Shown here: positions 3,626-47,289 of the stretch, piece by piece
How the letters are laid out: each line of letters begins with the position of its first letter
How positions within the stretch are numbered: position 1 is the stretch's first letter
NCBI GenBank assembly: GCA_964441155.1
Contig: CAYYKL010000005.1
Coordinates: forward strand, 4,434 to 68,433
Direction of reading: 5' to 3'
From: an uncultured Pseudomonadales bacterium
GTDB lineage: Bacteria > Patescibacteriota > Microgenomatia > UBA1400 > RBG-16-45-19
Length of the DNA stretch: 64,000 bases
Made by a program: the position numbers and the translations under genes
The notes under the pieces: model-generated
What the model was told of the DNA's origin: nothing
What the model saw: the letters and a program-made list of their open reading frames with translations, nothing else
Database searches by the model: none

Positions 3626-5350
3626 TTATTTCGCACCTAACCGTTGTAACAAAGTGGTCCGATCAATAATCTCAAACGTTGCCTCACCTCGGCGTTTCCA
3701 TTCAACCTGGTCTCCCGTTTTTTCTGACACAACTAAGCGCACCGGGCATCCGATTAAGTCTGCATCAGCGAATTTTTTTCCGGGTGATTCATCGCGCTCA
3801 TCCCACAAGACTTCAATTCCTGAATCGGTTAACTGACCATACACAGTTTTAGCTTGTTGTTCAGACCCTTTAAGAGAAATGAGATGGACTGCATAGGGTG
3901 CAATTATCTCCGGCCAGAGCAAGCCACGATCATCGTGATAGATTTCGGCGATAGTTGCCATGGTGCGGGCCAATCCAATGCCATATGAACCCATATAATA
4001 CGGCTGTTTGGTGCCATCTGATGCGATGTAGCTAGCATTAGCCATTTTGTTTGCGTAGTGATGTCCAAGTTGAAAAATATTTCCCACTTCAATGCCCCGT
4101 TTTTCGATCAGTGGTTGGCCTGAATCTGTTAAAAATCCTGCCTGGGCCATGGCAATATCAGCTTCAATCTCGTGAGTGAAATCTCGACCATAATTAACGT
4201 GTTGCGAATCAGTCGCTTCTTCTTTTTGCCCGCCGATAAAGTTTTTGACATGCTTTAGCGACTCATCGGCAACATAGATCACTCGGGCATCGCGGTTTTC
4301 ACTCGATACTTTGCGGGGCGTAATAAATGAGTGTCCCCACGAATGCACATATCCATATTTGGTGCCGATGGCCTGCAAGTCTTCCGGTGTTGCATCCTCG
4401 AGCTGACCGACCAAATCCAGCGCATGCTCTAATTTGGTTTTGTTGACGTCCAGATCTCCGCGAATGGTGGCGATGATAATATCGCCTTGCCTGCTGCGGT
4501 AGACGACATTTTTGAGATAGCGCCAAGCCGGTTGCCCATAGTGTTTCAGGTTATCTTCCATGGTGCGTACCCACTCAGGTTGATCAACGATTGCAAAATC
4601 TTTGATCTCTTCATCGGGATTTTTGTGTTCGTGCCTAAATGTTGCCACATCTTCATGAGCGTAATACGAGCCATCTTCGGTCACAAAAAATCTGCCTTCC
4701 CCTTCTGGGTGTTCAACTTGAAACTCATGACAATATTCGCCACCAATGTAGCCATTGTCTGCTTCGACAACTAAAACTTCTAACCCCAGGCGTTTGAATA
4801 TGGTGAGATAGGCTTGCTTCATGTTTTCGTATTCTTTTTTAAACGCTTGCTCATCGACATCAAAGCTGTAGGCATCTTTCATGATAAATTCTCGCAAGCG
4901 CAATAACCCTCCACGAGCTCTCAGCTCATCTCGAAATTTGTTGGAAAATTGATAAATATTTATCGGCAGATCTTTATGCGACAAATTAAATTTACGCACC
5001 ACATCGGTAAACATTTCTTCAGCCGTTCCGCCAAGGGCAAATTCCCCACCGCGCCGGTCCACAATCTTCATGAGCTCAAACCCGGCAGTACTCGTGCGAT
5101 TGGTTTCTTTCCACAATTCCAGCGGATGAAGTGTGGGTGAAAGCATTTCTTGCGATCCGGCTTTATCCATTTCTTGTTTGATCACTGCTTTGATTTTGTC
5201 GTGCACCCTCCAACCCAATGGCAACATAAAATATCGCCCAGCCGCACTTTCACGAATGAAGCCACCCTTTACTAACAATTGATGGCTTTTTAGCTTTGAG
5301 CCTTTTTGCTCACCATGAGTCGTTTTGCCAAAGAGGCTTGAATAACGCAT
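3626..5350 (-). CDS. proS: proline--tRNA ligase (bacterial type with editing insertion)
   Basis: MRYSSLFGKT..SHQLLVKGGFIR..YFMLPLGWRV..LSPTLHPLELWKETNR matches the ProRS N-terminus. About 575 aa. ATG at 5350 is two codons inside the ORF-track GTG start. Confidence 0.9.
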   Translation of the reverse strand: MRYSSLFGKTTHGEQKGSKLKSHQLLVKGGFIRESAAGRYFMLPLGWRVHDKIKAVIKQEMDKAGSQEMLSPTLHPLELWKETNRTSTAGFELMKIVDRRGGEFALGGTAEEMFTDVVRKFNLSHKDLPINIYQFSNKFRDELRARGGLLRLREFIMKDAYSFDVDEQAFKKEYENMKQAYLTIFKRLGLEVLVVEADNGYIGGEYCHEFQVEHPEGEGRFFVTEDGSYYAHEDVATFRHEHKNPDEEIKDFAIVDQPEWVRTMEDNLKHYGQPAWRYLKNVVYRSRQGDIIIATIRGDLDVNKTKLEHALDLVGQLEDATPEDLQAIGTKYGYVHSWGHSFITPRKVSSENRDARVIYVADESLKHVKNFIGGQKEEATDSQHVNYGRDFTHEIEADIAMAQAGFLTDSGQPLIEKRGIEVGNIFQLGHHYANKMANASYIASDGTKQPYYMGSYGIGLARTMATIAEIYHDDRGLLWPEIIAPYAVHLISLKGSEQQAKTVYGQLTDSGIEVLWDERDESPGKKFADADLIGCPVRLVVSEKTGDQVEWKRRGEATFEIIDRTTLLQRLGAK

Positions 5351-5431: not shown

Positions 5432-6115
5432 ATGCATAACCCGGCTAATGAAGTATTGGCTGACGCTTTAAGCTCAATTCCTCAAGAAAAAAGAGATATT
5501 GCTGTATACCCTTCGCGCAAAAATTTCCGTCGCCATTCTGCTATGCTCATCGCCGCCGTGACTGCTGTTAGTTTGGCTGGCATCGCCGCACTCATTTCAC
5601 TCAAGCCTGTGGCATATATCGGATCAAAAGCAGATGTAGCCGAACCAGCCATTATCGAAATTCAAAACTTTATCGAACCCTGCGATCTTCACTACGAAGG
5701 TTGCCATGATCCCGTATCTTATGTCGATACTTTGTCACTTGAGACAGATGTTAAAGAAAGCATGTTGCACGTTGCCCAACAATACAACCTAAGCCCTCAA
5801 ATTTTGTTAACTCTTATCTATGTGGAGCGAGATATTCCGCCATCAGTGACCATAGAACTAACCGAAGCTTCACTTGTGCGAACGGCAGAACAACTGGTAA
5901 CTGCACTTAAAAACTCGGCTAAACCTCCAAGGGTTTTCAATCATCCAACGTACGGACCATACAAGCTCAATTCACTCAATGAATCGAGCTTTGCGCTCTT
6001 GAACTACTTAGCCGTGAATACGGATAATCAATCACATTTCGAATCGGCAATTCAATCGCCGAGTGAGACTGATCCTCAGGTTGTTGGTTTTGTGGAAATG
6101 TTCAACGCACTCTAA
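5432..6115 (+). CDS. hypothetical protein with one N-proximal transmembrane segment
   Basis: 227 aa ORF with hydrophobic stretch LIAAVTAVSLAGIAALISL. No recognisable catalytic motif. Confidence 0.45.
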   Translation: MHNPANEVLADALSSIPQEKRDIAVYPSRKNFRRHSAMLIAAVTAVSLAGIAALISLKPVAYIGSKADVAEPAIIEIQNFIEPCDLHYEGCHDPVSYVDTLSLETDVKESMLHVAQQYNLSPQILLTLIYVERDIPPSVTIELTEASLVRTAEQLVTALKNSAKPPRVFNHPTYGPYKLNSLNESSFALLNYLAVNTDNQSHFESAIQSPSETDPQVVGFVEMFNAL

Positions 6116-6140
6116 AACAATATTCTAGGTATTGCGTTTA

Positions 6141-6212
6141 TTGTTCGAGACGCGTCGAGAACTCAATTCATGGCTGATAGTTTTGACTTCTCACGTTCGT
6201 TCGAAGAGTATC
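6141..6212. repeat. dispersed intergenic imperfect-palindrome repeat, copy A (TGTTCGAG..CGAGAACT..ACTTCTCAC..TCGAAGAG)
   Basis: Shares the nested motif TTCGAG / GAGAACT / ACTTCTC / TCGAAG with copies at 8497-8557, 10046-10118, 19847-19912 and 46173-46215. Confidence 0.6.
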
Positions 6213-6227
6213 TGCTCGGAAATGCAT

Positions 6228-7364
6228 TTAAGGCCATAAATTCTTAAACCAACTTTGTACGCTCGCATCTTGCACCACCCGAGAAATATCACGTGCGGAT
6301 ACCGCCACAATCATGCTGATTAGCAACATAAAACCGGCAAAGTTGGCATAGTGCTCGATCTTGGGATTAATGCGCTTCCTGCGAATTCCTTCATAGAGCA
6401 AAAAGATCACCCTGCCACCGTCTAGTGCAGGGAATGGAATCAAATTGATAATTGCTAAGTTGATTGACAAAATTGCCGCAAAGTTTAGGCGGTCAAGCCA
6501 ACCGCTCGTAAGGATTCCTTCTTTTTGAGCCATGTGCACGATCCCCACCGGCCCAGCCACCTCAACGGGAAGTTTTCCCTGGGTAAAGATATTAGCCACC
6601 ATGGTCCCCAAAGACTTCAAGAGAAGTATTCCAAATTCAACCGCCGATTGCAGTCCAACGACTGCGCCTCGAAATGGCATTTGCCAAGTTGGATAGCGTT
6701 TTAACTCGAAGTCATTGATGACCACACCGATTGAGCCTTGATCTGCGGGGATTTCTTCTTTGGAGCGAACATACACTTCGGTTGCCTGCACTTGATCGTT
6801 CCTTTTGAACTGAACGGTTGCCGTTTCACCAGCGAGCTGTTGCACCGCAGCGATAAAGCCTGCCGAGTCTTTTATTTGCAACGATACTTCGGTGGTTTCA
6901 ATTTGGGTTATCACATCCCCACTAGCCAAACCAGCCTCTTGAGCTGGAGAATTAGATGCCACCTGACTAATTTTCACACCATCAATCACCGTAGGAATGC
7001 CCATGATGGTGTAAATCGTGGCAAACGCTGCAACGCCAAAGGCAAAGTTCACGCTGACTCCGGCAATAATCACAATCATGCGCTGCCACACCGGCTTGTC
7101 AAAAAATGCTTTACCTTGAGTGCCTTTTCCCTCAGTCGTCATTGATCCATCTTCGCCAAACATGCGCACAAAACCACCAAAGGGCAGCCAATTGAGGGTA
7201 TATTCCGTTCCGCCTTTGTCTTTGTGAAGGGTTAGTGCTTTGGGTGGATAGCCCATGCCGAATTCTTCAACTTTGATACCAAACTTTTTCGCGGTCAAAA
7301 AATGACCCAATTCATGAATAAGCACGAGGAACGAAAGGATGAGGATGAAGATGATGATAGTCAT
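6228..7364 (-). CDS. rseP: RIP metalloprotease RseP (site-2 protease, M50 family with PDZ domain)
   Basis: N-terminal HELGHF (HExxH) in a TM helix, a central PDZ-like region, and a C-terminal LDGG motif (FPALDGGRV). Confidence 0.85.
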   Translation of the reverse strand: MTIIIFILILSFLVLIHELGHFLTAKKFGIKVEEFGMGYPPKALTLHKDKGGTEYTLNWLPFGGFVRMFGEDGSMTTEGKGTQGKAFFDKPVWQRMIVIIAGVSVNFAFGVAAFATIYTIMGIPTVIDGVKISQVASNSPAQEAGLASGDVITQIETTEVSLQIKDSAGFIAAVQQLAGETATVQFKRNDQVQATEVYVRSKEEIPADQGSIGVVINDFELKRYPTWQMPFRGAVVGLQSAVEFGILLLKSLGTMVANIFTQGKLPVEVAGPVGIVHMAQKEGILTSGWLDRLNFAAILSINLAIINLIPFPALDGGRVIFLLYEGIRRKRINPKIEHYANFAGFMLLISMIVAVSARDISRVVQDASVQSWFKNLWP

Positions 7365-7428: not shown

Positions 7429-7443
7429 TTCTAATTGCTCTAA
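7429..7443. repeat. left arm of perfect 15-bp inverted repeat flanking the four-helix-bundle gene (TTCTAATTGCTCTAA)
   Basis: Exact reverse complement of 7860-7874. Confidence 0.7.
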
Positions 7444-7462
7444 ATAATAACTAAAGCCCCAA

Positions 7463-7831
7463 TTATTTTACTTTTTTATAAATAGCATTGAAAATCAGAT
7501 GCAATTCTTTAGCTTCTTGCCATAAGAGCTTGGCTTCCTGATTCAACTCGGGCACAGCAACTATCACCATACGGATAAAGTGTTTTGATTCCCGACATTC
7601 TTTTTTAACAATGGCAATTTTATGGCGAAAATCCCTTTTACTATCTGCATCATCGGCTTCACAATAATTTGCCCCAATACTTGTTGCGCTTCTAATTAAC
7701 TGAGTAATTAATGGCCGAGTTATAGCGTCCTGAGAAATTTGTTTACAAAAGCTGATTATCTTTTCTCCAAATAACGCCGTTCTATCTTCAAGATCATATA
7801 CTTTATCTCGATTTGATTGGTTATCAGACAT
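7463..7831 (-). CDS. four-helix-bundle protein (TIGR02436-type, the family typically encoded in 23S rRNA intervening sequences)
   Basis: 122 aa with SIGANYCEA and ESKHFIRM signature segments of the four-helix-bundle family. Confidence 0.65.
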   Translation of the reverse strand: MSDNQSNRDKVYDLEDRTALFGEKIISFCKQISQDAITRPLITQLIRSATSIGANYCEADDADSKRDFRHKIAIVKKECRESKHFIRMVIVAVPELNQEAKLLWQEAKELHLIFNAIYKKVK

Positions 7832-7859
7832 TTGTAATTGGTTAGATCAATTAGGTTAA

Positions 7860-7874
7860 TTAGAGCAATTAGAA
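7860..7874. repeat. right arm of perfect 15-bp inverted repeat (TTAGAGCAATTAGAA)
   Basis: Exact reverse complement of 7429-7443. A second shorter inverted pair, AATTGATCTAA / TTAGATCAATT, lies just outside at 7408-7418 and 7843-7853. Confidence 0.7.
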
Positions 7875-7879
7875 ATTCT

Positions 7880-8425
7880 TTATAATTCCATCAACTCCTT
7901 CTCTTTGGTTTCAATCATGACTTCGAGTTTTTGTTGATATTGTTCAAACAATTTTTGCATTTCTTCCATCCAACTTTTGATGTCGTCTTCCGAGACTCCT
8001 GCATCATCTTCTTTCTCATCCAATTCTTTTTTCATCCGGGTACGACTATCACGCAACATATTTTTGCCACTCTCGTGTTTTTGCTTGACGAGTTTGACCA
8101 TTTCTTCACGGCGTTCTTGGGTGAGCTGTGGCACGACGATCCGAATAATATCGCCATCAACCACCGGATTAAGATTCAGGTTACTTATGCGAATGGCTTT
8201 TTCAATGTGGCCCAAAATACTTTTATCCCAGGGGCTCACGATAAGAAGTTGTGAGTCGGGCGCAGAAACAGTTGCTAATTCATTCAACTGCATCTGTTGA
8301 CCATAGGCTTCAACCCGAATATGCTCGAGCATAGAGGGTTTAGCGCGGCCCGTGCGGATGAGTTTTAATTCTTCAGCGACAACTTCTAGGGTTTTATCGA
8401 GACGTTTTTTGAACTCATCAAACAT
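7880..8425 (-). CDS. frr: ribosome recycling factor
   Basis: 181 aa; RVEAYGQQMQLNELATVS..DSQLLIVSPWDKS..IEKAIR.SNLNLNP is typical RRF. Confidence 0.9.
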   Translation of the reverse strand: MFDEFKKRLDKTLEVVAEELKLIRTGRAKPSMLEHIRVEAYGQQMQLNELATVSAPDSQLLIVSPWDKSILGHIEKAIRISNLNLNPVVDGDIIRIVVPQLTQERREEMVKLVKQKHESGKNMLRDSRTRMKKELDEKEDDAGVSEDDIKSWMEEMQKLFEQYQQKLEVMIETKEKELMEL

Positions 8426-8496
8426 AGGGTGCTCCTGACATTAAAAATTACTTGAGCCAATTGTATCACCTAGTCAATGTTAGAAATCCCTGTGTT

Positions 8497-8557
8497 ACGC
8501 TTCGAGGTACTCCGAGAAGTTTCTCATAGTAAAGTTCTCACGTTACCTCTCGAACAT
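8497..8557. repeat. dispersed intergenic imperfect-palindrome repeat, copy E
   Basis: CTTCGAG..GAGAAGT..AGTTCTC..CTCGAAC. It occupies the tsf-frr spacer where pyrH usually sits. Confidence 0.55.
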
Positions 8558-8601
8558 TAAAAAGCAATGCATGATATCAGCAACATGAGAAGTGACGAAA
8601 C

Positions 8602-9054
8602 CTAAACCGCCAACCGCTCGAACGCTTCAACTTTGACGTTTTCACCCAGTTTTCCAGCCACTTGCTTGACCAATTGCTCGATGGTGAGTTTAGCGTCACG
8701 CACATATTCTTGCTTGAGTAATGCTGCGGTGGATTCTGGCTCCATTGAAACGACCTGCATGGCAAGTTCTTTGGCCAGGTTTTTGAAATCATCGGTGCGG
8801 GCCACAAAGTCGGTTTCGCACAAGAGTTTGACGATAGCACCGCTGTTGCCGTTGTGATGAATGTAAACCCCAATCACACCCTGAGCAGTTTCACGATCAG
8901 CTTTTTTCTCGGCGCGCTGCATGCCTTTAGCTGCAATCCAGGCCTCGGCTTTTTTCATGTCGCCGCCAGATTCTTCCAGCGCTTTTTTGGCATCCATGAC
9001 ACCGGCACCAGTTTTCTCTCGTAATTGTTTGATTAATTCCATTGTTACTGCCAT
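8602..9054 (-). CDS. tsf: elongation factor Ts (short form)
   Basis: ELIKQLREKTGAGVMDAKKALEE..LLCETDFVARTDDF. AGGAGG RBS lies before ATG at 9054; the ORF-track start at 9087 is likely over-extended. Confidence 0.85.
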   Translation of the reverse strand: MAVTMELIKQLREKTGAGVMDAKKALEESGGDMKKAEAWIAAKGMQRAEKKADRETAQGVIGVYIHHNGNSGAIVKLLCETDFVARTDDFKNLAKELAMQVVSMEPESTAALLKQEYVRDAKLTIEQLVKQVAGKLGENVKVEAFERLAV

Positions 9055-9164
9055 AAACCTCCTATATATCATACTAACTTGACACACTGGCTAAACTTTT
9101 AAGAGCCAGTGTGTCACCCTGAGCAGATCTAGCGAGATGTGACGAGCTAGACTGCGTAGGGTTT

Positions 9165-9911
9165 CTACTTATTTCCTACTGCTTGATCCTGCGTTTTGCG
9201 TAGCGCTCTTCCATCCGCATACGCTTGGGCAATGCAGGTCATGACGAGCTTTATGGAGCGGATTGCATCGTCGTTGACGGGAATGGGATACGCAATTGGA
9301 TCAGGATCAGCGTTGCTGTCGACCATGCCGACAACAGGAATCCCTTTGCCAAAGGCTTCTTTGACTGCGGTATCTTCGTGGTGGGTGTCAACAATAAACA
9401 ATGCTTCTGGACCGTTTTTTAATCCAGCGAGACCTCCGAAAAAGCGGTTTAAACGGGCCATTTCTTTATCCAAGAGCACGCGCTCTTTTTTGGTGTAGTG
9501 AGCGAATTTGCCACCACTCAAGCCGTCTTGAAGCATTTTTAATCGATTTACTCGTTGAGTAATCTCTTCCCAATTAGTGATAACACCTCCAAGCCAGCGC
9601 TCGGTGATAAACGGTGCACCCAAGTTGATCGCTTCTTCTTTCACAATTGCTTGAGCTTGTCGCTTGGTACCAACCAAGACTATTTCTTTGCCGCTTGCCA
9701 CCCAGTCACGAACAAATTTCATCGCTTTTTCTAAGTGTTTAGCAGTGATGGCCAAATCAAAAATATGCACTCCGTCTCGAGCAGTATAGATGTATTTTTG
9801 CATCTTGGGATTCCATCGACGAATCTGGTGACCAAAATGGCACCCAGCCTCGAGCAAATCGCGCAAATCAACGGAATATTCAGCCGCTTGGGGCTGTGGT
9901 GAAGCACTCAT
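9165..9911 (-). CDS. rpsB: 30S ribosomal protein S2
   Basis: LLEAGCHFGHQIRRWNPKM..YIYTARDGVHIFDL..VLVGTKRQAQ..IVDTHHE; AAGGAG RBS. A putative TTGTTT-16-TATCAT promoter lies about 60-90 nt upstream. Confidence 0.9.
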   Translation of the reverse strand: MSASPQPQAAEYSVDLRDLLEAGCHFGHQIRRWNPKMQKYIYTARDGVHIFDLAITAKHLEKAMKFVRDWVASGKEIVLVGTKRQAQAIVKEEAINLGAPFITERWLGGVITNWEEITQRVNRLKMLQDGLSGGKFAHYTKKERVLLDKEMARLNRFFGGLAGLKNGPEALFIVDTHHEDTAVKEAFGKGIPVVGMVDSNADPDPIAYPIPVNDDAIRSIKLVMTCIAQAYADGRALRKTQDQAVGNK

Positions 9912-10045
9912 ATAATCTCCTTAAACCTCCGCTATAAAGCTCTTGCTAACCGCAGGAGATATGCTTTAAGCGTGTGAATTTTGTAACTTGAGGTATGATA
10001 GCAGAAATCTCAACCGAAACAAGACGCTGGCCACACCATGAATAC

Positions 10046-10118
10046 TGTTCGAGCAAAGCGAGAACTAATCGATTTTTTACTTCTCACTCGATAAATATTC
10101 GAGTTCGAAGAGTATTTG
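10046..10118. repeat. dispersed intergenic imperfect-palindrome repeat, copy B
   Basis: TGTTCGAGcaaagCGAGAACTA..ACTTCTCAC..GTTCGAAGAGTAT aligns at about 75% identity with copy A. Confidence 0.6.
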
Positions 10119-19216: not shown

Positions 19217-19795
19217 TTAATTTCTGTTTAACTCAACTTCTAGTTGGTCACTAGTTAATCCTATTGATTTGGTGAATGCTTCAAATTGCTCACGTACACC
19301 AATATTTTCATGAATTAAATGCTTTAGTTCGCGAATCGTTTCGGCCCATTCATAGGGAAACACCACCCATTGATTGGTGGCTTCAGCCACAAAATCTGGT
19401 TTGTAGGTGCTATGGGGTTTGGCAAAAAGGCACGCACTCTTGAGCAAAATTGGCTCAAGACCTTTCAAGTTTGCAAGCGCCACCTCAAACGTGCGGCCAG
19501 AATCACAAATTTCGTCAACGAGCAGCACTTTTTTGCCCGCCATCCCCTGAGTGAGCGGTTGATACACGACAATTTCACCTTTTTGCCCTATCCCTTGATA
19601 TGAGCGCAAGCCGATGTTGAGCACAGGTAAATCAAGAAGGTCTGAGAGGATCCGCGCTAAAAGAGCCCCACCTCGAGAGATCGACACGATTTCTTCATAG
19701 GTTTCACCCGAGGCAACCACCATTTGAGCGAGCTGAAAACTTAACCGATTGAAGTTGGGAAAATCAATAAAACGTAAATCCGGAATGGTTGCCAT
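19217..19795 (-). CDS. hpt: purine phosphoribosyltransferase (Hpt/Xpt-like)
   Basis: KKVLLVDEICDSGRTF PRPP-binding loop; 192 aa. Confidence 0.65.
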   Translation of the reverse strand: MATIPDLRFIDFPNFNRLSFQLAQMVVASGETYEEIVSISRGGALLARILSDLLDLPVLNIGLRSYQGIGQKGEIVVYQPLTQGMAGKKVLLVDEICDSGRTFEVALANLKGLEPILLKSACLFAKPHSTYKPDFVAEATNQWVVFPYEWAETIRELKHLIHENIGVREQFEAFTKSIGLTSDQLEVELNRN

Positions 19796-19846
19796 ATTTT
19801 TTTCACTTTCTTAAGTCAATCTATATAACGATAGTACATTCTATAT

Positions 19847-19912
19847 TGTTCGAGATTCATCGAGAACTAATTGCGCAGACTATACAAGACTTCTCGCAGA
19901 CACTCGAAGACA
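19847..19912. repeat. dispersed intergenic imperfect-palindrome repeat, copy D
   Basis: TGTTCGAGattcatCGAGAACTAA..ACTTCTCGCAG..CTCGAAGA with clean nested inverted pairs. Confidence 0.6.
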
Positions 19913-19952
19913 AATGCTTTTTGAGAATATGGCATTAGCGTTGGATATTGCA

Positions 19953-20729
19953 TTACAAATCAGCAATAATTCCGGTGAGCAATTGAACCATTTGCTTAGA
20001 ACTTGAGTTCGCAGCAGCTAAAACATCCTCATGAGCATGTTGCACAAAAGCCAAATTAGTCACAAACGACAATCCCAATACGTTAAGCTCAAGAGCGCGA
20101 GCCATAATCGTTTCGGGCACCGTGCTCATGCCCACCACATCGGCACCCAAGTGATGCAGTGCCATTTTATCGGCTGGGGTTTCAAAATGGGGCCCGTGCA
20201 TGTAGGCGTAAATGCCTTCGCGATAAGGCAGAGATTCGCGCGCACAGATCTTTTTGGCCACAAGCCGCAAATCTTGATTGAATGCTTGCGACATATCGAT
20301 AAACTGCGGTCCTACCAGCGGGTTTGAGGGCAAAAAGAGGGTGAGCACGTCGGAGAGAATGACGAAATCTCCAACGAGATACGACTCATTGAGCGCTCCT
20401 GATGCCGACGTCACAATGAGTTGCTTAATCCCTGCTTGCGCAAAGACTCGGATGGGCAGTGTTGCCTCTTGCGCAGCATAGCCTTCATAGAGATGGAGTC
20501 TGCCCTGCATGAAAGCCACTCGCTTTTCAGCAATTCTAGCAACGACGAGTTTTCCTTCGTGACCCGGCACCGTGGCACTTACGCCAAATAATTCTTTGTA
20601 GGAAATTTCTGTCTCAATTTCTGCCCCAACAAGCACTTGATTCCAACCTGTGCCAAGCATGAAAAGCAATGAGGGGAATTTTTTGATTTTCGATTGGACA
20701 ATCGACAGCGATTCTTGTTCTGAAAGCAT
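19953..20729 (-). CDS. purine nucleoside phosphorylase / MTA phosphorylase family (PNP-I trimeric type)
   Basis: GRLHLYEGY and VVGMSTVPE motifs; 258 aa. Confidence 0.7.
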   Translation of the reverse strand: MLSEQESLSIVQSKIKKFPSLLFMLGTGWNQVLVGAEIETEISYKELFGVSATVPGHEGKLVVARIAEKRVAFMQGRLHLYEGYAAQEATLPIRVFAQAGIKQLIVTSASGALNESYLVGDFVILSDVLTLFLPSNPLVGPQFIDMSQAFNQDLRLVAKKICARESLPYREGIYAYMHGPHFETPADKMALHHLGADVVGMSTVPETIMARALELNVLGLSFVTNLAFVQHAHEDVLAAANSSSKQMVQLLTGIIADL

Positions 20730-46172: not shown

Positions 46173-46215
46173 TGTTCGAGCGTGAAGCGCGAGAACTAGG
46201 TTATACAAACTTCAA
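46173..46215. repeat. dispersed intergenic repeat, partial copy C (CTGTTCGAG..GCGCGAGAACTAGG..ACTTCA)
   Basis: The 5' half of the repeat is present; the 3' half has diverged. A further fragment, CTTCGAGtgaaaCGAGAAG, lies at about 46520-46540. Confidence 0.45.
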
Positions 46216-46540
46216 ATAGCTCTAGAAAATTGAAAACGAAAAACCCCGCAAGCGCATGAGTATTAAGAGGTACTTTCCCCCTGGATACCAGGTGGGTGGA
46301 CTGTCATACATCCCGCGAGACGCATGAACGCCCGTCCTCCCGCAAGAAAGTTAAATTGTCGAGGAAAAAATCCTCTCACTCTTCGCCACTCGCAGGGCAT
46401 GACCATTGTAGCATCGGGCAGCAAGAGGTCAATGCGTAATCACTTGATAAAGCACACTTTTTCCTCAAGAAAACAATGTGCATCCAATATTTGAGTAAGG
46501 CTTAAACTTTTACTTCACTCTTCGAGTGAAACGAGAAGCT

Positions 46541-46580
46541 AAAAAAAAGAGCTCCCCCGGTAATGAATCGGACGAGCTCT
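46541..46580 (-). terminator. intrinsic terminator for the 46606-47289 gene (A8-AGAGCTC...GAGCTCT as read on plus; hairpin plus U8 on minus)
   Basis: 7-bp stem with an 18-nt loop, preceded on the plus strand by eight A. Confidence 0.5.
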
Positions 46581-46605
46581 TTATATGATTTGCTATTAAA
46601 ATGCG

Positions 46606-47289
46606 TTAAGCGATTTGGCCCATTTTGACCGGGGTTGGCACTTGAGCTGTAGCTGAAAGCTGTCGATAGATATACATCGATCCAAGCATTACTGCTCCTG
46701 CGGCAACAATGCCGGGAATAATCAATAAAACAAACCCCAGCAAAACGAGTAGTGCTGAAACAAAACCGAAACCAAATAACCACATTTTCTTGCCTTGAGT
46801 CATTTCTCCACTGACTCGGAATGCCTCTTTGACACCCATACCTCTATCTACCACGAGATACGTTACATATTGGTATTTGATAGCAAAAACAATACCAGGA
46901 ACGATAAGTAGAATCATTCCCGCTATAACCAAGAGAGCATACGCAATACTGCCTAATAAATACGGCACGATTTGCTGCACACTTGTCATTAAAAATCCCT
47001 TGAATACAGCCAGCTCTTGCTTAAGGTCAGGAGTGGCCTTACCATCAACGATTCGAAGCACAAGCTTGATCTGAGCGATACCGACAAAAAGGCCAACAAT
47101 AGTAATGAGAATATTAAATACCAATGCCAAAGCTGATGAAACATTTTCTAGGCCAGAGGCGACGTAGCCGGTAATGGCATTAAAAAGAATGAGCATGAGC
47201 ATATACAGGGCTAAAAGTTTCCAGTGAGCCTTTAACTTTTCCCAGCCAAATCGCAATACCTGTGAATAACTCATCGTTACACTACTCAT
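46606..47289 (-). CDS. hypothetical polytopic membrane protein
   Basis: 227 aa with 5-6 hydrophobic helices. AAGGAG lies 4 nt before ATG at 47289. Confidence 0.5.
   Translation of the reverse strand: MSSVTMSYSQVLRFGWEKLKAHWKLLALYMLMLILFNAITGYVASGLENVSSALALVFNILITIVGLFVGIAQIKLVLRIVDGKATPDLKQELAVFKGFLMTSVQQIVPYLLGSIAYALLVIAGMILLIVPGIVFAIKYQYVTYLVVDRGMGVKEAFRVSGEMTQGKKMWLFGFGFVSALLVLLGFVLLIIPGIVAAGAVMLGSMYIYRQLSATAQVPTPVKMGQIA

What the first reader, a model, noticed from the sequence alone, without database searches (positions are those of the whole stretch)
6141..6212. Family of about 70 bp imperfect-palindrome intergenic repeats (at least five copies in 64 kb)
Copies at 6141-6212, 8497-8557, 10046-10118, 19847-19912 and a partial one at 46173-46215 share the nested motif TGTTCGAG-N6-9-CGAGAACT-N10-25-ACTTCTC-N5-10-(C)TCGAAG. 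The outer TTCGAG/CTCGAA and inner GAGAA/TTCTC pairs are inverted, so each copy can fold into a long bulged hairpin. Pairwise identity is about 70-80% outside the loops. All copies are strictly intergenic: at operon boundaries, upstream of rpsB, between tsf and frr, between PNP and hpt. This looks like a REP/MITE-like element or a shared regulatory or terminator RNA structure. I am not aware of such a family being described for this kind of genome.
Basis: seen in the sequence. Interest (0 to 1): 0.6.

Follow-up and report, generated by a model that had tools for sequence, protein, structure and literature searches.

The report
REP-like palindromic repeat doublets
The repeats are real: they are copies of a small selfish palindromic DNA element of the REP/REPIN kind, found here in a tiny-genome CPR bacterium but shared with several other bacterial phyla, and there is no sign that they regulate the neighbouring genes.

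Summary
The window holds four full copies (6136-6213 +, 8493-8562 -, 10040-10117 +, 19841-19916 +) and two half copies (46174-46196, 46520-46538). The core pattern gave 5 matches where shuffled sequence gave 0.

Each arm is a 19-23 nt REP-like unit, GTTC-GA-G...C-GA-GAAC: a GTTC/GAAC stem, a tandem G.A, and a covarying apical stem. A full copy is two inverted units that fold into one long hairpin, like a REPIN or BIME.

The family is not private to this Microgenomates-like genome. A strict pattern found about 90 more copies in Patescibacteria, Flavobacteriales, Sphingobacteriaceae, Leptospiraceae, Sphingomonadaceae and others. The non-CPR copies carry a CGTC/TGTC head, as in Di Nocera's "CGTC-tagged REPs".

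Evidence for dispersed mobile DNA rather than a cis-regulatory RNA or terminator:
- Copies lie in either orientation and in every intergenic context.
- They are absent from the syntenic rpsB-tsf-frr sites of the closest relatives.
- There is no T-tail and no Rfam match.
- One genome holds four near-identical copies of a ~150 bp version.
- 15 of 94 copies sit in frame inside or between real genes, as Rickettsia RPEs do.

No mobilising enzyme was found. I rate this a new member of a known kind, of moderate interest.

The parts
6136..6213 (+). Full doublet c1, between the convergent ends of ORF 5432-6115(+) and rseP 6228-7364(-). L unit is 6143-6162 (GTTCGAG ACGCGT CGAGAAC); R unit is 6187-6206 (CTTCTC ACGTTCGT TCGAAG).
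   Evidence: covariance model hit of 47.1 bits; RNA fold -20.9 kcal/mol.
8493..8562 (-). Full doublet c2, between tsf (8602-9087 -) and frr (7880-8425 -), in the same orientation as those genes. L unit is 8534-8555; R unit is 8500-8519.
   Evidence: covariance model hit of 52 bits; gene identities.
10040..10117 (+). Full doublet c3, 130-200 nt upstream of rpsB (9165-9911 -) and antisense to it. L unit is 10047-10065; R unit is 10080-10110 and carries an extra side hairpin, ACTCGA-TAAATAT-TCGAGT. The outer stem is ATACT/AGTAT.
   Evidence: covariance model hit of 36.3 bits; fold -24.2 kcal/mol, z = -3.0.
19841..19916 (+). Full doublet c4, between the purine nucleoside phosphorylase gene (19953-20729 -) and hpt (19217-19795 -), antisense to both. 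L unit is 19848-19867; R unit is 19890-19909.
   Evidence: covariance model hit of 50.3 bits; gene identities.
46174..46196 (+). Solitary L unit, GTTCGAG-CGTGAAGCG-CGAGAAC. It folds as GTTC/GAAC plus GCG/CGC around a loop. No R partner follows.
   Evidence: DNA fold -4.2 kcal/mol; the full model scores only 9 bits here.
46520..46538 (+). Solitary unit of the C..G-closed type, CTTCGAG-TGAAA-CGAGAAG. It lies directly after the intrinsic terminator of gene 46606-47289(-) and upstream of the candidate 6S RNA promoter.

Best explanation
The copies belong to a family of REP-like palindromic repeats arranged as inverted doublets, the REPIN/BIME arrangement. The basic unit is a 19-23 nt imperfect palindrome, GTTC-GA-G(n)-loop-(n')C-GA-GAAC. 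A full element is one such unit, a 12-30 nt spacer, and an inverted unit that closes C..G instead of G..C. The whole element can also fold as one 25-30 bp hairpin, with conserved G.G and C.C mismatches and 4-5 covarying outer pairs (TTATT/AATAA in CPR genomes, GTCA/TGAC elsewhere).

Shown:
- The anatomy of the unit and the doublet.
- Spread of the same core across phyla.
- Lack of gene-specific placement.
- Amplification within one genome.
- Insertion in frame into real genes.

Inferred:
- The element spreads as non-autonomous DNA. Its folded single-stranded form would be recognised by an enzyme supplied in trans, most plausibly an HUH/Y1 RAYT-type transposase, which leaves no target-site duplication.
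- Copies persist where they do no harm, in spacers or in permissive in-frame positions.
- When transcribed, they form a stable RNA hairpin that may incidentally protect or process mRNA ends.

In this window the four doublets and two singlets look like old, diverged residents and not regulators of rpsB, frr or hpt.
For: Enrichment and strand-specific model hits.

Unit design:
- Every L unit has GTTC...GAAC around a symmetric CGAG/CGAG.
- 41 of 42 distinct spacers close with at least one pair. 52% close with at least two, against 16% of shuffles.
- Apical loops are GAA, AAA or GTA.
- Solitary units and tandem clusters of units exist.

Long hairpin:
- The four outer pairs each take 2-3 standard pair types and are paired in 16-17 of 18 sequences.
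- Flank complementarity is 5.06 of 8 positions, against 3.21 +/- 0.19 when partners are permuted.

Distribution:
90 distinct elements also have the untested right arm TCGAA[GC].
- Hosts include cultured isolates: Paenimyroides viscosum and Sphingomonas prati.

Not gene-specific:
- About 11 copies lie in the same orientation as their flanking co-directional ORFs and about 10 in the opposite one. 11 sit between convergent genes and 8 between divergent genes.
- No neighbouring protein family is enriched.
- The element is absent from syntenic rpsB-tsf-frr-rseP loci of relatives with 66-68% RpsB identity.

Mobility:
- Four near-identical ~150 bp copies with sharp ends (GTGATTCC...GGAATCAC), unrelated flanks and no target-site duplication occur in one Patescibacteria genome.
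- 15 of 94 elements lie in an open frame with at least 80 codons on each side. 12 of the 15 are read in the same element frame.
- Pfam domains of real proteins lie on both sides: class I aaRS (twice), Xaa-Pro peptidase, pseudouridine synthase, Mur ligase, DegT-FemAB and TsaE-Sua5.

Architecture and hosts: non-CPR copies match the published CGTC-tagged REPs in head and layout, and come from the same host groups.
Against: - No transposase was linked to the element. None lies in the window or in the 116 loci, apart from one Y1_Tnp gene that is flanked by a different hairpin.
- The window's copies share only the boxes, and the region is identical in six independent assemblies, so nothing shows recent movement in this genome.
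- REP families are usually described as species-specific (PMC6006769), whereas this core is conserved across phyla. That could mean a conserved host function instead.
- Side hairpins inserted in the arms sometimes end in GAAA, GTAA or TTCG loops. This is an anecdotal hint of selection at the RNA level.
- The isolated units are thermodynamically weak and no better than shuffles in most cases.
- The search pattern fixed the boxes, so covariation inside them could not be assessed.
Confidence: 0.75

Rival explanations
1. A structured cis-acting RNA: an operon-punctuating hairpin, a bidirectional terminator, an RNase III site or an mRNA 3'-end stabiliser, selected for that role at each site.
For: - Stable long hairpins, -15 to -24 kcal/mol.
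- Compensatory changes in the outer pairs and spacers.
- Variable side hairpins with GAAA, GTAA or TTCG loops.
- Many copies fill short spacers between co-directional genes, so they must be transcribed.
Against: - Orientation is random relative to the flanking genes, and copies occur in divergent, convergent and co-directional spacers.
- The element is absent at the same sites in syntenic relatives.
- No T-run follows any window copy, while the genome does use a classical terminator at 46541-46585.
- There is no Rfam match beyond generic hairpins.
- In-frame copies inside coding sequences cannot be terminators.
- Fold z-scores are modest, -0.6 to -3.
Confidence: 0.1
2. A classical MITE: a deletion derivative of a DDE-transposase insertion sequence, recognised through its terminal inverted repeats as double-stranded DNA.
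For: One Patescibacteria genome holds four near-identical ~150 bp copies with terminal inverted repeats GTGATTCC.../...GGAATCAC and unrelated flanks. The overall palindromic shape and size fit.
Against: - No target-site duplication flanks those four copies.
- Within the window only the boxes are conserved, while the loops and spacers differ completely.
- The arms have internal hairpin design with covarying spacers, which a double-stranded TIR does not need.
- No transposase gene was found between or near arms.
Confidence: 0.1
3. An operator array for a DNA-binding regulator, for example a PurR-like, LexA-like or heat-shock-type factor recognising TTCGAG/CGAGAA half-sites.
For: There are four conserved 6-7 bp boxes. 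The window copies lie near purine-salvage and translation genes, and a PRT-domain protein is encoded nearby.
Against: - Box spacing varies from 3 to 12 nt on the left and 1 to 60 nt on the right, which breaks helical phasing.
- The spacers are mutually complementary.
- Copies occur downstream of convergent genes and inside ORFs.
- There is no common neighbour or regulon.
- The element is absent in relatives with the same genes.
Confidence: 0.03
4. Chance similarity of AT-rich spacers.
For: None beyond the modest fold z-scores.
Against: Five matches against 0 expected, model hits of 36-52 bits, and about 90 further copies elsewhere that carry an untested right arm.
Confidence: 0.01

Closest known systems
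REP / BIME / REPIN elements with their RAYT (TnpA-REP) transposases (E. coli, Pseudomonas)
   Same: - Short imperfect-palindrome units of about 20-25 nt.
- Inverted doublets that fold into one long hairpin.
- Singlets and clusters alongside doublets.
- Mostly extragenic, at tens of copies per genome.
- No target-site duplication.
- A conserved short motif 5' of the hairpin foot.
   Different: - No GTAG/GTGG head; this family has TTATT in CPR genomes and [C/T]GTCA elsewhere.
- The stem contains a conserved tandem G.A.
- The core sequence is shared across phyla instead of being species-specific.
- No cognate RAYT was found flanked by the units.
CGTC-tagged REP superfamily (Di Nocera et al. 2013, PMC3733652), which includes Neisseria dRS3 and Rickettsia RPE-4/RPE-6
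   Same: - In the non-CPR copies: a CGTC/TGTC head, then A, an 8-position stem, a 5-6 nt loop, and a mostly dimeric arrangement.
- No dedicated transposase is known.
- Some copies are intragenic.
- The paper's host list (Turneriella, Gramella, Sphingomonas, Sphingobium, Sphingopyxis) belongs to the Leptospiraceae, Flavobacteriales and Sphingomonadaceae groups in which I found this core.
   Different: - The window's CPR copies lack the CGTC head and the CCA tail.
- Stem positions 6-7 are G.A mismatches.
- The second stem pair is G-C, not T-A.
- The sequence is not in the paper's text or searchable supplements, and its figures could not be read.
- CPR hosts are not covered.
Rickettsia palindromic elements (RPE)
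   Same: Palindromic repeats in a reduced genome that also insert in frame into protein-coding genes, adding a short peptide in a preferred frame. Here 15 of 94 copies do so, 12 of them in one frame.
   Different: Ours are shorter, 60-100 bp against 100-150 bp. The hosts are different. No sequence relationship was tested. All of the window's own copies are intergenic.
MITEs such as Correia or ERIC
   Same: Small, palindromic, non-coding, intergenic and often co-transcribed elements.
   Different: No target-site duplication was seen. Only the boxes are conserved between the window's copies. The arms have a hairpin-unit substructure.
Integron attC sites
   Same: A bipartite hairpin of an outer box, a spacer, an inner box and a variable terminal structure, with conserved unpaired bases.
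   Different: The boxes do not fit RYYYAAC/GTTRRRY and are placed the other way round. There are no cassette arrays. The flanking genes are core genes.

Membership tests
REP/REPIN (RAYT-associated) | Unit is a short (20-40 nt) imperfect palindrome | tested here: met
   The unit GTTC-GA-G...C-GA-GAAC is 19-23 nt. 41 of 42 distinct spacers close with at least one pair, and 52% close with at least two, against 16% of shuffles.
REP/REPIN (RAYT-associated) | Many dispersed, mainly extragenic copies, with inverted doublets that form a long hairpin, plus singlets and clusters | tested here: met
   Four doublets and two singlets in 64 kb. Four copies in 3 kb of L067 and a cluster in L035. Long-hairpin pairing shown.
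REP/REPIN (RAYT-associated) | Conserved GTAG/GTGG tetranucleotide 5' of the hairpin foot | tested here: not met
   The upstream profile is TTATT in the CPR-type group and (C)GTCA in the Bacteroidota-type group.
REP/REPIN (RAYT-associated) | A single-copy Y1 transposase (RAYT) gene flanked by the cognate REPs | tested here: inconclusive
   No Y1_Tnp gene in the window or in 115 of the 116 pattern loci. The conserved CPR Y1_Tnp next to gyrB is flanked by a different hairpin (CGATCCCGTATCG), and its loci lack the element. Whole genomes could not be scanned.
CGTC-tagged REPs (Di Nocera 2013) | Unpaired CGTC (or TGTC/CCTC) head at one end | tested here: not met
   The window copies have TTATT, ATACT or TTAAT instead. 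The head is present in relatives from Flavobacteriales, Leptospiraceae, Latescibacterota and Gemmatimonadota.
CGTC-tagged REPs (Di Nocera 2013) | Stem of 8-9 bp beginning with A-T pairs, loop of 4-5 nt, CCA tail, mostly dimers | tested here: inconclusive
   Stem A-GTTCGAG/CGAGAAC-T has 8 positions, two of them G.A. Loops are 5-6 nt. Dimers predominate. There is no CCA tail, and the second pair is G-C. The paper's consensus figure could not be read.
MITE (DDE-type) | Terminal inverted repeats flanked by a target-site duplication | tested here: not met
   The four near-identical copies in one genome have sharp ends but no duplication.
Intrinsic terminator | G+C-rich hairpin followed by a T-run | tested here: not met
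   No T-run follows any window copy, and the terminator scan calls none of them.
Conserved cis-regulatory RNA (leader, riboswitch or Rfam family) | Fixed orientation and position relative to a gene family, kept in orthologous loci; match to a curated model | tested here: not met
   Both orientations occur. The element is absent from syntenic relatives. No match reaches any Rfam gathering threshold, and only generic hairpin models appear below threshold.
Integron attC | R''=RYYYAAC at the 5' end and R'=GTTRRRY at the 3' end, downstream of cassettes near an integrase | tested here: not met
   The boxes are GTTCGAG at the 5' end and CTCGAAG at the 3' end, so the order is reversed and the consensus is not met (read directly from the sequence). 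The flanking genes are rpsB, tsf, frr, hpt and rseP.

The most novel reading that the evidence does not exclude
A single tandem-G.A hairpin REP family, probably a branch of the CGTC-tagged superfamily, is shared from Leptospiraceae and Flavobacteriales to the Candidate Phyla Radiation. It has colonised ~1 Mb CPR genomes, including in-frame positions in essential genes such as aminoacyl-tRNA synthetases. That would imply a conserved, still unidentified recognition partner: a new REP-transposase pairing, or a host factor that binds the hairpin. It would also make CPR genomes a second case, after Rickettsia, of palindromic elements remodelling proteins in reduced genomes.
Probability: 0.25. Interest if true: 0.65.

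Novelty: new member of a known kind. Interest (0 to 1): 0.42.

Why it matters
- REP-type elements are thought of as species-specific passengers of larger proteobacterial genomes. Finding one conserved core in CPR bacteria and in four or more other phyla raises the question of what recognises it.
- It also gives a ready marker (covariance model R1) for scanning CPR genomes.
- For annotation, these hairpins should not be read as promoters, terminators or riboswitches of rpsB, frr or hpt.
- Their in-frame copies explain odd 20-30 residue inserts and apparent gene fusions in CPR proteins.
- For this window alone the finding is ordinary: old, inert repeat copies in spacers.

Tried and rejected
- **Rfam.** The whole window, three other loci at the gathering threshold, and an E-value scan of a canonical copy gave only microRNA-like generic hairpins.
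- **Known operators recalled from memory.** A PurBox or LexA-box (CGAAC) or HSE-like reading was rejected because of variable spacing and complementary spacers.
- **attC.** The box consensus and order do not fit.
- **Four-helix-bundle ('23S IVS protein') gene as cargo.** That gene in the window has its own, unrelated inverted repeat and is not enriched near copies.
- **Neighbour-gene enrichment.** All-against-all BLAST found nothing.
- **Genes sandwiched between units.** One case is an ordinary gene between two units, the other holds two unannotated ORFs; nothing in either looks like a transposase.
- **Y1_Tnp/RAYT as mobiliser.** It is conserved and syntenic in Microgenomates, but it is flanked by another hairpin and occurs in loci without the element.
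- **Phage vector.** Viral contigs gave three chance-like coding hits only.
- **Plasmid BLAST.** No match; the query is too short for that database.
- **Strain polymorphism.** Six assemblies are identical to the window.
- **Promoter/terminator scan.** Counts equal those of shuffles.
- **Literature by sequence strings and by topic.** Nothing relevant beyond the two REP surveys.
- **First MAFFT alignment with flanks (A1).** It was misaligned and was not used.
- **Alignment A3.** It mixes both strands of the same copies, so it was not used for pair counts.

Full report
**1. Observation**

- TGTTCGAG-N4-12-GAGAAC occurs five times in the window, and never in 100 dinucleotide-preserving shuffles.
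- The inner pair GAGAAC-N8-30-CTTCTC occurs four times, against 0.10 expected.
- Looser half-patterns add one solitary unit at 46520-46538.
- I built covariance model R1 from 16 copies in other genomes plus three window copies and ran it over the whole window without filters. It finds exactly four full copies: 8493-8562(-), 19841-19916(+), 6136-6213(+) and 10040-10117(+), at 36-52 bits.
- The opposite strands of the same sites score only 16-22 bits, so each copy has a defined orientation. The copy at 46173 scores 9 bits and is only a left half.

All copies are intergenic. The genome is a CPR/Patescibacteria member of the Microgenomates kind. The best named RpsB relative is 66% identical.

**2. 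Anatomy**

The four boxes are not independent. The left arm reads GTTC-GA-G...C-GA-GAAC. That is a GTTC/GAAC stem, a symmetric CGAG/CGAG step that gives a tandem G.A, and then a G-C pair followed by a variable spacer.

That spacer is itself self-complementary:
- 41 of 42 distinct spacers close with at least one pair.
- 52% close with at least two pairs, against 16% of shuffled spacers.
- Longer spacers simply lengthen the stem (GCC-GAA-GGC, GAC-GAA-GTC, GCT-GAAA-GC).
- The loops are GAA, AAA or GTA.

The right arm is the inverted version, but it closes C..G (CTTC...GAAG). When the two arms pair with each other they therefore leave a G.G and a C.C mismatch. The last base after TCGAA was the one box position the search pattern left free between G and C. 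It is G, giving the G.G mismatch, in 86 of 90 elements.

Outside the arms, four to five further pairs covary:
- They read TTATT/AATAA in CPR copies, GTCA/TGAC in Bacteroidota and Leptospiraceae copies, and ATACT/AGTAT in window copy c3.
- Each of the four outer pairs takes two or three standard pair types and is paired in 16-17 of 18 sequences.
- Flank complementarity is 5.06 of 8 positions, against 3.21 +/- 0.19 when partners are permuted.

Some copies carry an extra side hairpin in the left or right spacer. Solitary units and tandem clusters of units also exist.

This is the layout of REP units joined into inverted doublets (BIME/REPIN).

Two cautions apply. The isolated units are thermodynamically weak in the nearest-neighbour model. 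The long hairpins are only moderately better than shuffles, z = -0.6 to -3. The case therefore rests on design and covariation, not on energy.

**3. Distribution**

I scanned one genome per species of GTDB with a strict 21-base pattern.
- About 26 are chance-like hits in coding sequence. One example is a conserved Ilumatobacteraceae gene.
- 90 distinct elements also carry the right-arm box TCGAA[GC], which the pattern did not ask for.
- Hosts are Curtiss-, Gottesman-, Roizman-, Davies-, Berkel-, Portnoy-, Gracili- and Saccharibacteria and other Patescibacteria.
- Other hosts are Paenimyroides, Myroides, Chryseobacterium, Flavobacterium, Sphingobacteriaceae, Leptospiraceae, Sphingomonas, Sphingobium, Latescibacterota and Gemmatimonadota.
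- Two hosts are cultured isolates, so the spread across phyla is not a binning artefact. Some MAG labels attached to CPR-type copies may be wrong.

Viral contigs hold only three chance-like hits.

**4. Is it a regulatory or terminator RNA?**

The evidence says no.
- The rpsB-tsf-frr-(four-helix-bundle gene)-rseP neighbourhood is kept in the three closest relatives I could fetch, yet none has the element anywhere in 14-21 kb.
- Across the other loci, about 11 copies between co-directional ORFs share the genes' strand and about 10 oppose it. 11 lie between convergent genes and 8 between divergent genes. These counts are ORF-based and approximate.
- In the window, c2 is sense to its neighbours and c3 and c4 are antisense.
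- No protein family is enriched next to the copies.
- No window copy is followed by a T-run, although the genome has a textbook terminator at 46541-46585.
- Rfam has nothing but generic hairpin models below threshold.

**5. Is it mobile or selfish DNA?**

Two observations say yes for the family.

First, one Patescibacteria genome (SO_2016_LW3_52) holds four near-identical copies of a ~150 bp version. These copies have sharp ends (GTGATTCC...GGAATCAC), unrelated flanks and no target-site duplication.

Second, 15 of 94 elements lie in an open frame that extends at least 80 codons on both sides. Twelve of the 15 are read in the same frame of the element, giving YSSS[E/D]...SSR...SNN. Pfam finds real domains on both sides of, or interrupted by, the insert:
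- Creatinase_N | Peptidase_M24.
- tRNA-synt_1 | Anticodon_1, in two different genomes.
- PseudoU_synth_2.
- Mur_ligase_C.
- DegT and FemAB, with three inserts in one 792-residue frame.
- TsaE | Sua5.
- Glycerate kinase | transketolase.

This is the behaviour known from Rickettsia palindromic elements.

In the window itself nothing shows recent movement. The copies share only the boxes, and the region is identical in six independent assemblies.

**6. The mobiliser**

By analogy with REPs, I looked for a Y1/HUH transposase.
- One Y1_Tnp gene (PF01797, E = 6e-11) lies 560 nt from a copy in L067.
- Its family is large, has one copy per contig, and is 64-92% identical among the top hits. In three of the four further loci fetched it sits in conserved synteny just upstream of gyrB, as in L067. 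That is RAYT-like behaviour.
- However, it is flanked in direct orientation by a different hairpin, CGATCCCGTATCG-like.
- Its loci in four other genomes hold no copy of the element.
- An HMM of the family finds no member in the window or in the other 115 pattern loci.

The enzyme therefore remains unknown. The RAYT-type mechanism is an inference from the anatomy: a hairpin unit, a conserved 5' motif and no duplication.

**7. Comparison with what is known**

The closest described systems are REP/BIME/REPIN elements and, more specifically, the CGTC-tagged REPs of Di Nocera et al. 2013. That paper describes a CGTC or TGTC head, an 8-9 bp stem beginning with A-T, a 4-5 nt loop, mostly dimers, no dedicated transposase and some intragenic copies.

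The non-CPR copies fit this layout, reading CGTC-A-GTTCGAG-loop-CGAGAAC-T. The paper's host list names Turneriella parva (Leptospiraceae), Gramella forsetii (Flavobacteriaceae) and several Sphingomonadaceae. These are the same non-CPR groups in which I found the core.

I could not confirm identity. The sequence is not in the text or the searchable supplements, and the consensus figure is not held. The REP tables of Quentin et al. 2018 do not contain it either.

The window's own copies fail two CGTC features, the head and the CCA tail, and they fail the GTAG feature of RAYT-linked REPs. I therefore file them as REP-like doublets related to the CGTC type, not as proven members. I found no description of such elements in CPR genomes.

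**8. Verdict**

The REP-like reading is right, and the regulatory or terminator reading is not supported. This is a new member of a known kind. It has two moderately surprising traits, a core shared across phyla and in-frame colonisation of CPR genes, and its mobilising or recognising partner is unknown.

Noticed in passing
window 46239-46401 (-): Sub-threshold 6S RNA match (RF00013, 34.3 bits against a gathering score of 46.4, E = 2.5e-5). A TTGACC-N-TACAAT promoter-like site lies just upstream, and the upstream gene's intrinsic terminator is at about 46541-46585. This is probably the genome's 6S RNA gene. The two solitary repeat units flank it.
   Followed up: partly
window 7463-7831 (-), repeats at 7429-7447 and 7856-7874: A four-helix-bundle ('23S rRNA intervening sequence protein', TIGR02436/PF05635) gene sits between frr and rseP, bracketed by its own 19 nt inverted repeat (95% complementary). 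The same gene is at this site in relative L119 but is absent in L118, so it looks like an inserted cassette. It is unrelated to the finding's repeat.
   Followed up: partly
L067:1670-6245, and also L004, L007, L023, L028, L049, L051, L060, L061, L068, L085, L107: Copies of the element lie in frame inside or between real genes of CPR genomes: class I aminoacyl-tRNA synthetases, Mur ligase, DegT-FemAB, pseudouridine synthase, Xaa-Pro peptidase, TsaE-Sua5 and glycerate kinase-transketolase. They add about 20-30 residues, usually YSSS[E/D]...SSR...SNN.
   Followed up: yes
L067:6309-7001; L126:10001-10669; L127:6566-7231; L128:10001-10678; L129:10001-10672: A highly conserved Y1 (IS200-like) transposase homologue with motifs NHIH, FQ and YIHLNP. 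It sits upstream of gyrB in conserved synteny in L067 and L126-L128, but in a different neighbourhood in L129. It is flanked on both sides, in direct orientation, by a small hairpin (CGATCCCGTATCG-like). It looks like a domesticated RAYT-type gene with its own cognate hairpin. L128 and L129 each carry a second paralogue.
   Followed up: partly
L011:2990-3170; L058:750-930 and 5140-5320; L109:2610-2790: Four near-identical ~150 bp palindromic units in one Patescibacteria genome. The finding's element lies at their centre, the ends are GTGATTCC...GGAATCAC, and there is no target-site duplication. This is a recently amplified, longer version of the element.
   Followed up: partly
L035:1-870 (Saccharibacteria): An 870 nt non-coding stretch packed with repeat units. 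It holds several units of this family plus hairpins of the classical CGTC type (TGTC-ATCC...GGAT-CT). A related variant, GTCA-TTTCGAG-CGTAG-CGAGAAA-TCC, lies at L067:7117-7186. This suggests that CGTC-type REPs proper also exist in CPR genomes.
   Followed up: no
L031, L054, L061, L081, L099 (right arms): A recurrent nested insert, GGAGTTTATCCnGAGCGAAGTCGAAGGG, sits inside the right arm of some copies, in both Bacteroidota and CPR genomes. It contains the same GAGCGAAGTCGA core and may be a unit inserted into a unit.
   Followed up: no
L014, L019, L048, L055, L073, L077, L098, L103, L111: The search pattern also hits a conserved coding stretch in Ilumatobacteraceae and related actinobacteria (ccgcacctGTTCGAGACCGGCGGCGAGAACTACCAC..GACTTCTC). 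These are false positives with no right arm.
   Followed up: no
window 8602-9087 and 7880-9911: EF-Ts is only about 150-161 residues, and there is no pyrH between tsf and frr. The same is true of the relatives' loci.
   Followed up: no
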